Virus record (IMG/VR): IMGVR_UViG_3300044695_003856
Span: 7,352 to 71,351 of that record
Reading direction: 5' to 3' (one strand)
From: a virus
DNA length: 64,000 nucleotides
The notes below the pieces were generated by a model. That model saw nothing but the letters and a program-made list of their open reading frames with translations. It ran no database searches and was not told the origin of the DNA. Of the stretch, positions 54,621-55,195 are shown piece after piece (position 1 is the first letter of the stretch; each line of letters opens with the position of its first letter). A program made the translations under genes and the position numbers.

Positions 54621-54648
54621 GAACCGACTATAACTTTGGGCTGTTAAT
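54621..54648 (+). promoter_or_regulatory. Phage-sigma promoter GAAC-N18-GTTAAT with a nested host -7 box TAACTTTG
   Basis: GAACCGACTATAACTTTGGGCTGTTAAT. Confidence 0.6.
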
Positions 54649-54654
54649 AGCGCA

Positions 54655-55195
54655 TGAGTTAGAGTTCAAGTCATAAGAGGATTACCTGAGTTCAGACCGT
54701 CTCAGCACAAAACTGGTCCAAACTTGCATTTCTAGTCGATGCTTGGTTCGAGCAAAGTAAAGTCCCACAGCAAGCGCCTTCGAAACTCCTTTATTGGTTT
54801 CGTGATCCGCCTTCGGAGATACGCAGCTGACGGCATTCAAAATTAAAGTAAACCAATCAGGGGGCGGATCTTTCTGACCAAAGATTTGCCAAACTACCTT
54901 TGGCGAATCGCCTGGTCTTCTTTTCCGCCACCAAGCCTCCGGAGGGGTGGTTAAACCACAGCCCACCAACCGGTGGGCCAATGAGACCCAATGGGAACCA
55001 ACCCGGAGGATGGCGAGGTAGTCATGCCTTCGGATTGGTAGTAGTGAACCGTGGCGGATTGACGGGATGTGAGACATCTTTTTGAATTGTTTTTTCACCA
55101 CCAAATGCTTGCGCCTTGGGGGAAGTATTTGAGTAGTGAGAGCCCCGGACCACCTTGGGGGTGGCCGGGGGGACAGAACTATCGGGATGTAGTTG
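54655..55195 (+). ncRNA. Candidate large structured non-coding RNA
   Basis: No credible plus-strand gene; many helices and long-range pairings; promoter directly upstream. Confidence 0.5.

What the first reader, a model, noticed from the sequence alone, without database searches (positions are those of the whole stretch)
54621..55195. Candidate novel ~550-nt structured RNA behind a dual (phage sigma + host) promoter
Seen in sequence: a gap with no credible gene in an otherwise densely coding arm, starting right after GAAC-N18-GTTAAT with a nested TAACTTTG. ATTGGTTT 54793-800 pairs with AAACCAAT 54850-57 and crosses GATCCGCC 54804-11 / GGCGGATC 54863-70, giving a pseudoknot or switch. GATTTGCCAAA/TTTGGCGAATC 54883-909 is closed by GACCA/TGGTC. 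Long-range TCCGCCAC 54924-31 / GTGGCGGA 55051-58 encloses GTGGTT/AACCAC and GCCCACC/GGTGGGC hairpins. Further hairpins are CAAATGCTT/AAGTATTTG 55102-131 and CCCCGG-CCACC/GGTGGCCGGGG 55143-170. Several G-U pairs favour folding of the plus strand. I do not recognise it as tmRNA, RNase P or an intron. Inference: a large phage ncRNA, similar in spirit to GOLLD/ROOL RNAs, or alternatively a structured ssDNA origin.
Basis: partly seen in the sequence, partly recalled or inferred. Interest (0 to 1): 0.8.

Follow-up and report, generated by a model that had tools for sequence, protein, structure and literature searches.

The report
New pseudoknotted RNA in lake phages
The gene-free gap holds a real, previously undescribed folded RNA of about 184 bases with crossing helices, conserved in a lineage of freshwater phages, but what it does is still unknown.

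Summary
The conserved unit is not about 550 nt. It is a 184-nt core, window 54688-54871 on the + strand. I found it in 31 of 35 related metagenome loci and 5 of 28 related viral records, always between a 77-aa and a 109-aa gene.

On 22 distinct sequences, seven helices are 93-95% paired, against 29-44% when partners are slid. Fifteen to 20 pairs are changed on both sides.

There is no Rfam match, no conserved reading frame, no codon periodicity, and no copy in 185,579 bacterial species genomes.

A Bacteroidota-type sigma-A box (TAnnTTTG) precedes the core in 21 of 21 loci. In the window it is nested in GAACC-N16-TGTTAA, a motif that recurs upstream of structural genes. The phage encodes an ECF-type sigma factor.

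The 3' 370 nt is clade-specific (24-387 nt). Its long-range helix is not conserved.

Metatranscriptome contigs from three studies cover the core.

Best reading: a stand-alone phage ncRNA of a new family, mechanism unproven. A cis-regulatory leader is the main rival.

The parts
54621..54647 (+). GAACC-N16-TGTTAA motif, a candidate promoter for the phage's ECF-type sigma factor
   Evidence: There are four exact copies in the window: 29153-79(-), 35546-72(-), 39889-915(-) and this one. At up to 1 mismatch there are 6 sites against 1.31 expected, and 0 of 100 shuffles reach 6. The three other exact copies lie 20, 74 and 22 nt upstream of gene starts in the structural arm. An exact copy precedes the RNA in the L002, L043-L045 and L048-L058 loci. 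It is absent before the RNA in the L063 and L070 clades. Its function is inferred.
54631..54638 (+). TAACTTTG, a Bacteroidota sigma-A type -7 box (TAnnTTTG)
   Evidence: A TAnnTTTG box lies upstream of the core in 21 of 21 loci while the flanks differ. The consensus and its position, -12 to -5, come from passages of PMC9723704. The motif is not enriched in the window as a whole: 26 found against 37.3 expected.
54643..54687 (+). Inferred transcript start (54643) and a clade-specific 5' leader
   Evidence: The start is +1 computed from the -12..-5 rule. One metatranscriptome contig (X15, record 3) begins exactly at 54643 with no mismatch. This is a weak hint only, because contigs cannot show RNA ends. 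The leader is about 45 nt here and about 13-20 nt in the L063 and L070 clades.
54688..54871 (+). Conserved RNA core, 184 nt, with seven helices
   Evidence: Covariance model R1 scores it at 191 bits, E 7e-51, and finds this as the only copy in the window. 22 distinct homologues score 155-205 bits.
54688..54725 (+). P1 (54688-92 with 54721-25) enclosing P1a (54695-98 with 54715-18), with the conserved loop GUCUNA...CAAAAC
   Evidence: Helix 1 has 10 pairs, 3 changed on both sides, and 89.6% of cells paired. P1a reads GACC/GGTC, GACT/AGTC, GCTGT/ACAGC and GATGG/CCATC in different clades.
54726..54742 (+). P2 hairpin (54726-29 with 54739-42)
   Evidence: Four pairs, 3 changed on both sides, 93-100% paired.
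54743..54751 (+). P3 hairpin (54743-45 with 54749-51)
   Evidence: Three pairs, 100% paired. The only changes are U-A to U-G, which fit the + strand RNA only.
54761..54766 (+). Invariant AGUCCC in the junction. It may pair with the invariant GGG at 54860-62.
   Evidence: Both are invariant in 22 of 22 sequences. The pairing is inference and cannot be tested by covariation.
54767..54830 (+). P4 (54767-76 with 54822-30), which crosses helices A and B
   Evidence: Eight pairs, 7 changed on both sides, 90.3% paired. It reads CAGC..GCG/CGC..GCTG, TAAC/GTTA, TCGT..ATG/CAT..ACGA and TTGT/ACAA in different clades.
54793..54857 (+).
   Evidence: Eight pairs, 100% paired in 22 sequences. Six pairs are invariant, one changes U-A to C-G in 3 sequences, and one changes U-A to U-G.
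54804..54870 (+).
   Evidence: Eight pairs. On the plain MAFFT alignment it is 86.9% paired, because four sequences are out of register by one column. On the model-fitted alignment it is 98.3% paired with 6 pairs changed on both sides. It reads GATCCGCC/GGCGGATC, TTGCGCCC/GGGCGCAA and CGCACCC/GGGTGCG.
54872..55085 (+). Clade-specific 3' extension: hairpin 54876-54917, optional hairpins 54947-78, weak hairpin plus T-run 55066-85
   Evidence: The distance from core end to gene match ranges from 24 to 387 nt among loci. The 54947-78 hairpins are deleted in L045, L057 and L053. The hairpin at 55066-78 has one compensatory change. It is not called as a terminator by the scan, having only 2 G-C pairs.
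55098..55170 (+). Two strong hairpins (55102-31 and 55143-70) between the T-run and the next gene's promoter box
   Evidence: They are invariant or nearly so among the 9 relatives that have them. They account for much of the folding z-score.
55215..55222 (+). TATATTTG box, the own promoter of the downstream 109-aa gene (55241-55570)
   Evidence: It is present before the gene in 15 of the 16 loci printed (5 of the 6 clades; L071 lacks it), at a varying distance. In L063, L035, L059, L060 and L066 it ends 4 nt before the ATG.
54336..54569 (+). Upstream 77-aa gene, syntenic with the RNA in all clades
   Evidence: An alignment of 13 sequences has invariant H16, C21, C23, H43 and C56. Zinc binding is inferred. 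There is no Pfam hit.
61062..61652 (+). Phage ECF-type sigma factor gene
   Evidence: Sigma70_r2 at 39.7 bits (E 2.9e-11) and Sigma70_r4_2 at 50.1 bits (E 1.7e-14), both in one 198-aa open frame.

Best explanation
Window 54688-54871 (+) encodes the 184-nt core of a new family of phage non-coding RNA.

Shown:
- The core folds into three 5' hairpins (P1/P1a, P2, P3) and a 3' domain.
- In the 3' domain, three helices (P4, A, B) all cross one another.
- The joining nucleotides are nearly invariant.

Inferred:
- It is transcribed on the + strand from its own promoter, a host sigma-A type TAnnTTTG box.
- In this clade the box is nested in a motif that looks like the promoter of the phage's own ECF sigma factor. 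If so, the RNA would be made both early and together with the structural genes.
- The RNA continues into a clade-specific 3' extension. In one clade it ends at a canonical terminator.
- The fold is intricate, its sequence is more conserved than the neighbouring genes in five of eight comparisons, and the next gene has its own promoter. I therefore infer a stand-alone RNA acting through its shape: a scaffold or decoy for a protein, possibly one of the two small proteins always encoded beside it, or a binding site for a small ligand.
- It is less likely to be a messenger leader. The partner and the effect are unknown.
For: Homologues:
- The core is found in 31 of 35 metagenome loci fetched through the downstream protein. 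The 4 misses have under 170 nt of upstream sequence.
- It is found in 5 of 28 related viral records. Nearly all of the other 23 are rated under 30% complete.
- 22 distinct full-length sequences were used.

Structure:
- On the plain MAFFT alignment, 92.7% of 893 cells are paired, against 29-44% with partners slid by 1-3 columns. Fifteen pairs are changed on both sides, against 1-5 when slid. The covariation score is 0.248, against 0.071 or less. No shuffle of 500 reaches the observed pairing or score.
- On the model-fitted alignment, 95.0% are paired, 20 pairs are changed on both sides, and the score is 0.311.
- The competing local hairpins are not supported: score 0.106 against a shuffled mean of 0.128.

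Strand: many U-A to U-G and G-C to G-U changes would be A-C mismatches on the other strand.

Not coding:
- No frame is free of stops across the whole core in all 22 sequences.
- There are 1-nt indels between close relatives.
- Variable columns by codon position number 18, 17 and 15.

Conservation: the core is 76-93% identical to the window in five clade representatives, where the flanking genes are 56-82% identical.

Transcription unit:
- A TAnnTTTG box precedes the core in 21 of 21 loci.
- The box position gives +1 at 54643, and one RNA-library contig starts there.
- A terminator (7 pairs, 6 G-C, then a T-run) lies 30 nt after the core in L070. The same hairpin is seen in L074, L075 and L076.
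- The downstream gene has its own TATATTTG box.

Other:
- Contigs from RNA libraries of three studies (X15, X17, X18) cover the core.
Against: - No RNA end, strand or abundance has been measured. The RNA-library data are assembled contigs that also cover the flanking genes, and they may contain DNA. One of the four runs (X16) has no contig over 54539-54964.
- In the short clade (L063, L035, L059, L071) only 24-40 nt separate the core from the matched start of the next gene (26-29 nt from the ATG), with no terminator. There the RNA must be co-transcribed with the gene.
- In the window itself the scan finds no + strand terminator before 55642. A long leader is therefore possible here too.
- All 31 loci were found through the downstream protein, so the constant pairing of RNA and gene is partly built into the search.
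- The sequences fall into about six clades, so independent changes are fewer than the cell counts suggest. An all-against-all column scan gave many spurious covarying pairs.
- The core alone is no more stable than shuffles.
- No partner protein or ligand is identified. Structure models of both neighbouring proteins were poor.
Confidence: 0.58

Rival explanations
1. The core is a cis-acting leader, either a riboswitch or a protein-binding operator. It would control how much transcription or translation from the upstream promoter reaches the 109-aa gene and the genes beyond it.
For: - The core always lies directly upstream of the same gene.
- In the short clade it ends 26-29 nt before the ATG with no terminator.
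- In the L070 clade a terminator follows 30 nt after the core, as in a riboswitch expression platform.
- In L070 and L075 the 3' strand of helix B could pair imperfectly (6 of 7) with the terminator's 5' strand. This is my reading of the sequences.
- The window shows no called terminator before the gene.
- High sequence conservation of a pseudoknotted core is typical of aptamers.
Against: - A conserved TATATTTG promoter box sits between the core and the gene in 5 of 6 clades. In L063, L035, L059, L060 and L066 it is placed so that +1 falls on the A of the ATG.
- The spacer varies from 24 to 387 nt and is mosaic.
- The possible antiterminator pairing fails in L074, and both strands are G/C runs where such matches are expected by chance.
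- The RNA is seen before one gene family only, and no ligand is suggested by the gene, which has no known family.
Confidence: 0.2
2. The core is a self-processing or otherwise catalytic RNA (ribozyme). It would, for example, make its own 3' end in the clades that lack a terminator.
For: - It has three mutually crossing helices with nearly invariant joining nucleotides, a level of complexity usual in ribozymes.
- The short clade has no terminator after the core.
Against: - It matches no known ribozyme model in Rfam.
- The helix order (P4 5', A 5', B 5', P4 3', A 3', B 3') does not fit the HDV-like or glmS topology as I recall them.
- The C between helices A and B is not conserved.
- No cleavage data exist.
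Confidence: 0.08
3. The core is a promoter-proximal RNA that makes RNA polymerase resistant to termination, working like the HK022 put RNA or the Bacillus EAR element. Transcription would then read through downstream terminators.
For: The order promoter, structured RNA, terminator or hairpins, then a run of same-strand genes matches that arrangement. EAR is also pseudoknotted (recalled).
Against: - No Rfam match was found.
- The next genes appear to have their own promoters.
- The core is larger than put RNA (recalled).
- The idea cannot be tested with these tools.
Confidence: 0.06
4. The conservation reflects a small protein: the + strand ORF 54739-54846 (35 aa), or the antisense ORF 54682-55281.
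For: - One + frame is open across the central core in all 22 sequences, 25 to 216 aa from stop to stop.
- 18 of the 22 share the peptide SKRLRNxFIGFVIRLRRY or a close variant.
Against: - Start and stop positions are not conserved. The ORF lengths are 35, 71-81, 75-91 and 80-187 aa, and 4 of 22 have no ATG.
- A 1-nt indel separates the win and L063 clades inside the ORF, and another separates L070 from L076.
- In the L063 clade the frame would start inside the upstream gene and run across the promoter box.
- There is no third-position excess: 18, 17 and 15 variable columns.
- Changes are compensatory in helices, not conservative in the peptide.
- Helices P1 to P2 covary outside the ORF.
- The antisense ORF is broken in L002. 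The matching - frame is stop-free in only 5 of 22 sequences.
Confidence: 0.04
5. The element acts as DNA: a structured single-stranded origin, a packaging site or a recombination site.
For: The nucleotide conservation is high.
Against: - The pair changes are strand-asymmetric: G-U on the + strand would be A-C on the - strand.
- A conserved promoter box lies at a fixed distance.
- The region is present in RNA-library contigs.
- There are no repeats, and only a single copy.
- This is a double-stranded DNA tailed phage with terminase and portal.
Confidence: 0.03

Closest known systems
Long non-coding RNAs of crAss-like Cellulophaga phage phi14:2 (the g004-g005 and g005-g006 intergenic regions)
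   Same: - They are intergenic RNAs in the early-gene region of a Bacteroidota phage.
- They are reported as transcribed above most genes, present from the earliest time point, and not declining later. Their function is undetermined (passages of bioRxiv 10.1101/2020.03.07.982082).
- The terminase of the window's phage is closest to crAss-like phages, at 22-26% identity.
- The possible early-plus-late promoter pair found here would give a similar expression pattern.
   Different: - There is no detectable homology. Model R1 with filters off on the first 12 kb of phi14:2 gives at best 6.6 bits, E 0.24.
- The phi14:2 gap is about 1.7 kb, while the core here is 184 nt.
- No structure has been described for the phi14:2 RNAs in the passages I read.
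GOLLD and ROOL large ornate RNAs
   Same: They are orphan structured RNAs often carried by phages or prophages, supported by covariation, with unknown function.
   Different: - Neither Rfam model matches.
- Those RNAs are several hundred nucleotides long (recalled).
- They form homo-oligomeric complexes (abstract of PMC12286853, seen in the listing).
- Here the conserved unit is 184 nt, and nothing indicates oligomers.
Riboswitch aptamers with pseudoknots, and large leader RNAs
   Same: It is promoter-proximal and has a pseudoknotted core with invariant joining nucleotides. It lies upstream of one conserved gene, and a terminator follows in one clade.
   Different: The gene has its own conserved promoter box after the element. 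The spacer is hypervariable. No known aptamer model matches, and no ligand is suggested.
phi29 packaging RNA (pRNA)
   Same: It is a phage-encoded structured RNA of similar size (recalled: about 120-174 nt) that acts as part of a protein machine.
   Different: No Rfam match was found. This phage has a large terminase and a portal of another type. Nothing links the RNA to packaging except the shared candidate promoter motif.

Membership tests
Any Rfam 15 family (4227 models, including tmRNA, RNase P, group I/II introns, riboswitches, GOLLD, ROOL, pRNA, known ribozymes) | A match to the family covariance model | tested here: not met
   - The gathering-threshold scan of the whole window gave 0 matches.
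- The E-value scan up to 10 on 54400-55400 gave only two chance miRNA hits at 54400-54467.
- The E-value scan up to 5 on five divergent homologous loci gave only a tRNA elsewhere in L035.
- ARAGORN finds no tmRNA.
Structured non-coding RNA (generic) | Base pairs kept through compensatory changes, above controls that keep relatedness | tested here: met
   Fifteen pairs (plain alignment) or 20 pairs (fitted alignment) are changed on both sides, against 1-5 for slid partners. Pairing is 92.7% or 95.0%, against 29-44%.
Structured non-coding RNA (generic) | No conserved reading frame or codon periodicity | tested here: met
   Frameshifting indels separate close relatives.
Structured non-coding RNA (generic) | A discrete transcript with defined ends | tested here: inconclusive
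   Contigs from RNA libraries of 3 of the 4 runs laid cover the core. Contigs cannot show ends, strand or level, and DNA carry-over is not excluded.
Riboswitch / cis-regulatory leader | Lies in the 5' untranslated region of the regulated gene with no promoter in between | tested here: not met
   A conserved TATATTTG box lies between the core and the gene in 5 of 6 clades. This is a motif match, not a mapped start.
Riboswitch / cis-regulatory leader | An expression platform whose stem competes with the aptamer's closing helix | tested here: inconclusive
   A terminator lies 30 nt after the core in L070. Partial complementarity to the helix B 3' strand exists in L070 and L075 but not in L074 (sequences).
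Riboswitch / cis-regulatory leader | Specific ligand binding | not testable with these tools
   This needs in-line probing or calorimetry.
phi14:2 long non-coding RNAs | Sequence and structure similarity | tested here: not met
   R1 with filters off on NC_021806 positions 1-12000 gives at best 6.6 bits, E 0.24.
ECF-sigma dependent promoter (for the GAACC-N16-TGTTAA motif) | A cognate ECF-type sigma gene in the genome, and a GAAC-type -35 motif recurring upstream of genes | tested here: met
   A gene with sigma regions r2 and r4_2 lies at window 61062-61652. There are four exact motif copies, and 6 sites at up to 1 mismatch against 1.31 expected. Three exact copies lie 20-74 nt upstream of structural gene starts. 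That ECF promoters carry GAAC at -35 is recalled.
ECF-sigma dependent promoter | Transcription starts that depend on that sigma factor | not testable with these tools
   This needs in-vitro transcription or start-site mapping during infection.

The most novel reading that the evidence does not exclude
The core is the RNA subunit of a new phage ribonucleoprotein, or a new ligand-sensing or catalytic RNA. Its triply pseudoknotted fold would work together with the two small proteins always encoded beside it (a 77-aa protein with an invariant His/Cys set and a 109-aa helical protein). It would be made early from the host sigma-A promoter and again late from the phage's own ECF sigma promoter, and it would act in host takeover or counter-defence. 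It sits about 2 kb upstream of a MazG-like gene and a Tad2-like anti-Thoeris gene.
Probability: 0.2. Interest if true: 0.85.

Novelty: new variant of a known kind. Interest (0 to 1): 0.62.

Why it matters
Structured RNAs with several crossing helices and near-invariant junctions are rare. When their roles have been worked out, they have usually proved to be ribozymes, riboswitches or cores of protein machines.

This one is a clean candidate backed by covariation, from an uncultured lineage of lake phages distantly related to crAss-like phages. The only transcriptome study of that wider group that I read reports abundant early non-coding RNAs of unknown function.

The family model and the helix map make the question directly testable by probing, pull-downs and cleavage assays. 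The recurring GAACC-N16-TGTTAA motif together with a phage ECF sigma gene also gives a testable picture of how such a phage times its genes.

Its known range is narrow: one phage lineage and about six clades. That limits its general reach unless wider searches extend it.

Tried and rejected
Searches that found nothing or nothing new:
- blastn of the gap against 50,697 GenBank phage records gave no match.
- Exact 20-22 nt patterns in IMG/VR found only one, then five, already-known contigs.
- A degenerate core pattern in 185,579 species genomes gave 0 hits.
- The downstream protein in the same collection gave 0 relatives.
- Relatives cannot be drawn for a virus record.
- There are no earlier scan notes by place, sequence or words.

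Structure tests that failed or were uninformative:
- The local hairpins CGAAAC/GTTTCG and TCCG/CGGA, which the energy fold prefers, are rejected. They break in the L070 clade and show no covariation.
- An all-against-all search for extra covarying columns was swamped by clade structure and was abandoned.
- The nested-fold z-score of the core alone is +0.47. Thermodynamic stability is therefore no evidence for the core.

Neighbouring proteins:
- AlphaFold models of the 109-aa and 77-aa proteins had mean pLDDT 60.8 and 59.9. That is too poor for a fold search, so none was run.
- Protein Atlas gave only viral hypothetical clusters.
- PHROGs and Pfam gave nothing for either protein apart from one weak unnamed PHROG hit.

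Other checks:
- TAnnTTTG is not enriched in the window: 26 found against 37.3 expected. The promoter call therefore rests on conservation and position.
- The 2978-aa protein lacks a DFDxD motif, so I do not call it a crAss-type virion RNA polymerase.
- Run X16 has no contig over 54539-54964. A part without cover proves nothing.
- Contig depths were not used to rank expression.
- Literature searches gave no description of this RNA.
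Full report
**What the window is.** The window is bases 7352-71351 of a 71,351-base IMG/VR virus record rated complete. It encodes a DnaB-like helicase/primase, three paralogous tail proteins, a portal and a large terminase. The terminase's nearest named relatives are crAss-like phages of Bacteroidota, at 22-26% identity. 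The 2978-aa protein has no DFDxD motif, so I claim only a distant relation to crAss-like phages.

The finding lies in a run of small + strand genes. Downstream of it are a MazG-like gene at 56819-57337 and a Tad2-like anti-Thoeris gene at 57372-57665 (Pfam E 1.9e-22). An ECF-type sigma factor gene lies at 61062-61652.

**Checking the observation.**
- The gap between the 77-aa gene (54336-54569) and the 109-aa gene (55241-55570) has no credible ORF.
- The + strand of 54621-55240 folds at -228 kcal/mol, z -5.84 against 20 shuffles. The - strand gives z -3.64.
- Rfam gives nothing at gathering thresholds for the whole window. In E-value mode on 54400-55400 it gives only two chance miRNA hits outside the gap.
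- ARAGORN finds no tmRNA.

**Homologues.**
- GenBank phages hold nothing similar.
- One IMG/VR contig (L002) aligns to 53316-55566 at 77%. Inside the gap, about 54738-54920 is roughly 95% identical, which is better than the flanking genes. Indels of 1, 2 and 5 nt rule out a conserved frame.
- Relatives fetched through the portal gave 28 close records. Five of the 28 hold the element, and nearly all of the rest are short fragments.
- In four of those five records only about 130-150 nt matched, and the next gene followed almost at once. This showed that the conserved unit is much shorter than the gap.
- A metagenome scan with an alignment of the downstream protein returned 35 loci. Of these, 31 carry the element directly upstream of the gene. 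The 4 misses have under 170 nt of upstream sequence.
- The distance from the core end to the gene match is 24, 40, 128, 154, 191, about 232, or 325-387 nt, depending on clade.
- After removing duplicates there are 22 full-length distinct sequences in about six clades.

**Structure of the core (54688-54871).** I read helices from the alignment and tested them with the pair-counting tool.
- Plain MAFFT alignment A4, not fitted to any structure. The 41 pairs are 92.7% paired in 893 cells, against 29-44% when the 3' partners are slid by 1-3 columns. Fifteen pairs are changed on both sides, against 1-5 when slid. The covariation score is 0.248, against 0.071 or less. No shuffle of 500 reaches the observed pairing, changed cells or score.
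- Covariance model R1, built from A4 with 25 nested pairs. It re-aligned four sequences whose helix B was one column out of register.
- Fitted alignment A6. Pairing is 95.0%, 20 pairs are changed on both sides, and the score is 0.311. A fitted alignment leans towards the model, but only helix B gained from the fitting.

Per helix:

| Helix | Window coordinates | Pairs | Changed on both sides | Note |
|---|---|---|---|---|
| P1/P1a | 54688-92 with 54721-25; 54695-98 with 54715-18 | 10 | 3 | |
| P2 | 54726-29 with 54739-42 | 4 | 3 | |
| P3 | 54743-45 with 54749-51 | 3 | 0 | only U-A to U-G changes |
| P4 | 54767-76 with 54822-30 | 8 | 7 | |
| A | 54793-800 with 54850-57 | 8 | 1 | 6 pairs invariant |
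| B | 54804-11 with 54863-70 | 8 | 6 | |

The strand order is P4-5', A-5', B-5', P4-3', A-3', B-3'. All three helices therefore cross one another.

The local hairpins that energy folding prefers (CGAAAC/GTTTCG and TCCG/CGGA) are not supported. Their score is 0.106 against a shuffled mean of 0.128, and they are broken in the L070 clade. A switch between them and helices A and B is therefore not indicated, though it is not excluded in the clades where both can form.

The nested fold of the core alone is no more stable than shuffles, z +0.47. The strong z-score of the 620 nt comes from the 3' hairpins.

The sequences fall into few clades, so independent changes are fewer than the cell counts. An all-against-all column scan produced many spurious pairs. 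The slid-partner control, which keeps relatedness, is the one I rely on.

**Not coding.**
- No frame is free of stops across the whole core in all 22 sequences.
- One + frame is open across the central core in all 22, and in the window it gives a 35-aa ORF at 54739-54846. Its start and stop are not conserved, and 1-nt indels shift it between close relatives (win against L063; L070 against L076).
- In the L063 clade this frame would begin inside the upstream gene.
- The L070-clade peptide loses all the basic residues.
- Variable columns by codon position number 7, 7 and 12 in 18 sequences, and 18, 17 and 15 in all 22.
- The core is 76-93% identical to the window in five clade representatives whose flanking genes are 56-82% identical. 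It is about equal to the flanks (63-65%) in the three L070-group sequences.

**Transcription signals.**
- A TAnnTTTG box precedes the core in 21 of 21 loci while its surroundings differ. Passages of PMC9723704 give this as the sigma-A -7 box of Flavobacterium, at -12 to -5.
- In the window the box is at 54631-38, which puts +1 at 54643.
- The motif is not enriched in the window overall. The promoter call therefore rests on conservation and position.
GAAC-N16-20-GTTAA occurs 8 times against 3.05 expected.
- The sharper form GAACC-N16-TGTTAA occurs 4 times exactly. At up to one mismatch there are 6 sites against 1.31 expected, and 0 of 100 shuffles reach 6.
- The three other exact copies lie 20, 74 and 22 nt upstream of the starts of the gene 28392-29132, the portal gene and the gene 39160-39867. 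All three are in the structural arm.
- The copy before the portal is exact in 16 of the 28 close portal loci and differs by one base in those others that I printed.
- With an ECF-type sigma gene in the genome, a phage-sigma promoter is a reasonable inference. It is not shown. The L063 and L070 clades lack it before the RNA.

**The 3' part.** The 370 nt after the core is specific to the window's group of clades.
- Among 9 relatives, the hairpins at 54876-54917, 55102-31 and 55143-70 are invariant, which is uninformative.
- The hairpins at 54947-78 are deleted in three sequences.
- GCCCACC/GGTGGGC and the hairpin before the T-run (55066-78) each show one compensatory change.
- The long-range helix TCCGCCAC/GTGGCGGA is not conserved: 68% of cells are paired.
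- The scan does not call a + strand terminator in the window before 55642.
- In L070 a canonical terminator lies 30 nt after the core. The same hairpin is seen in L074, L075 and L076.
- In the short clade the core ends 26-29 nt before the ATG.
- A TATATTTG box precedes the downstream gene in 5 of 6 clades. In several loci it is placed so that +1 is the A of the ATG.

**Expression.** Six metatranscriptome runs hold part of the stretch. I laid four of them.
- Contigs from three studies cover the core: X15 at 54643-54835 and 54806-54957, X17 at 54680-54862, and X18 at 54658-54940.
- X16 covers only the flanks.
- One X17 contig comes from another clade of the family.
- These are assembled contigs from RNA libraries. 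They show presence, not ends, strand or level. They also cover the flanking genes, so DNA carry-over is not excluded.

**Distribution and context.**
- The core pattern is absent from 185,579 species genomes. So is the downstream protein.
- The module of 77-aa gene, RNA and 109-aa gene is syntenic in all clades.
- The 77-aa protein has invariant H16, C21, C23, H43 and C56.
- Neither protein has a known family or a confident model.
- The L060 clade combines a win-like upstream gene with an L063-like downstream gene, so recombination occurs around the RNA.

**Interpretation.**
- Shown: a conserved, pseudoknotted RNA structure on the + strand, not coding, and in no Rfam family.
- Inferred: its own promoters, its ends, and its independence from the next gene.
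- I favour a stand-alone RNA acting through its fold, as a protein or ligand binder. The next gene has its own conserved promoter, the spacer is hypervariable, one clade has a terminator right after the core, and the junction nucleotides are conserved beyond what pairing needs.
- The main rival is a cis-acting leader. The short clade argues for it, as does the lack of a called terminator in the window.
- A ribozyme, a put/EAR-like antiterminator, a small protein and a DNA element are less likely, for the reasons given under the rivals.

**Comparison with what is known.** The nearest analogue in print that I found is the pair of abundant intergenic RNAs of crAss-like phage phi14:2. They are early, persistent and of unknown function (passages of bioRxiv 10.1101/2020.03.07.982082). 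They are not homologous by model search over the first 12 kb of that genome. GOLLD, ROOL and pRNA share only the general character of orphan or machine-associated phage RNAs. Four literature searches turned up no description of this RNA. Supplements were closed, so motif lists held only there could not be checked.

**Verdict.** This is a real new RNA family of narrow known range, with an unusually knotted fold and an interesting promoter arrangement. Its function is open.

Noticed in passing
window 29153-29179(-), 35546-35572(-), 39889-39915(-), 54621-54647(+); 3511-3537(+) with one mismatch: GAACC-N16-TGTTAA recurs just upstream of structural genes and of the RNA. At up to 1 mismatch there are 6 sites against 1.31 expected. 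It is a candidate promoter set for the phage's ECF sigma factor. The 3511 copy overlaps a terminator-like hairpin and may be coincidental.
   Followed up: partly
window 61062-61652 (+): A phage-encoded ECF-type sigma factor: Sigma70_r2 at 39.7 bits and Sigma70_r4_2 at 50.1 bits.
   Followed up: partly
window 57372-57665 (+) and 56819-57337 (+): A Tad2-like (anti-Thoeris) domain protein (Pfam E 1.9e-22) lies next to a MazG-like pyrophosphatase. This looks like a small counter-defence cluster about 2 kb downstream of the RNA.
   Followed up: no
L035 2362-2497 (+): In a related phage, Rfam finds a tRNA (35.7 bits) whose full-length model match spans 136 nt. This suggests an insertion or intron in the tRNA.
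   Followed up: no
window 58429-58498 (+): ARAGORN calls a 'tRNA-???' with a four-base anticodon at the start of ORF 58427-59410. The Rfam gathering scan does not confirm any tRNA in the window, so this is probably a false call.
   Followed up: partly
window 55222-55240 (+): A conserved hairpin, GGCGTGT-AATAA-ACACGCC, ends just before the ATG of the 109-aa gene and starts inside the TATATTTG box. Transcripts from that box would lack its 5' strand, while read-through transcripts from the RNA promoter would carry the whole hairpin.
   Followed up: no
L060, L066, L064 compared with the L063 and win clades: These are mosaic loci. The upstream 80-aa gene and the 3' extension resemble the window's group, while the 106-aa downstream protein is nearly identical to the L063 group. 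Recombination therefore happens at or near the RNA.
   Followed up: partly
window 4280-8258 (+): Three consecutive paralogous tail proteins of 453, 447 and 426 aa all hit phrog_5939.
   Followed up: no
window 53809-54313 (-): Two small genes on the - strand (90 aa and 83 aa, the latter hitting phrog_11184) are embedded in the + strand early arm. They lie head to head, 22 nt apart, with the 77-aa gene.
   Followed up: no
window 55659-55715 (+): An intergenic stretch before the 352-aa gene is 84% identical to L002, while its surroundings do not align. It is probably another conserved promoter region.
   Followed up: no
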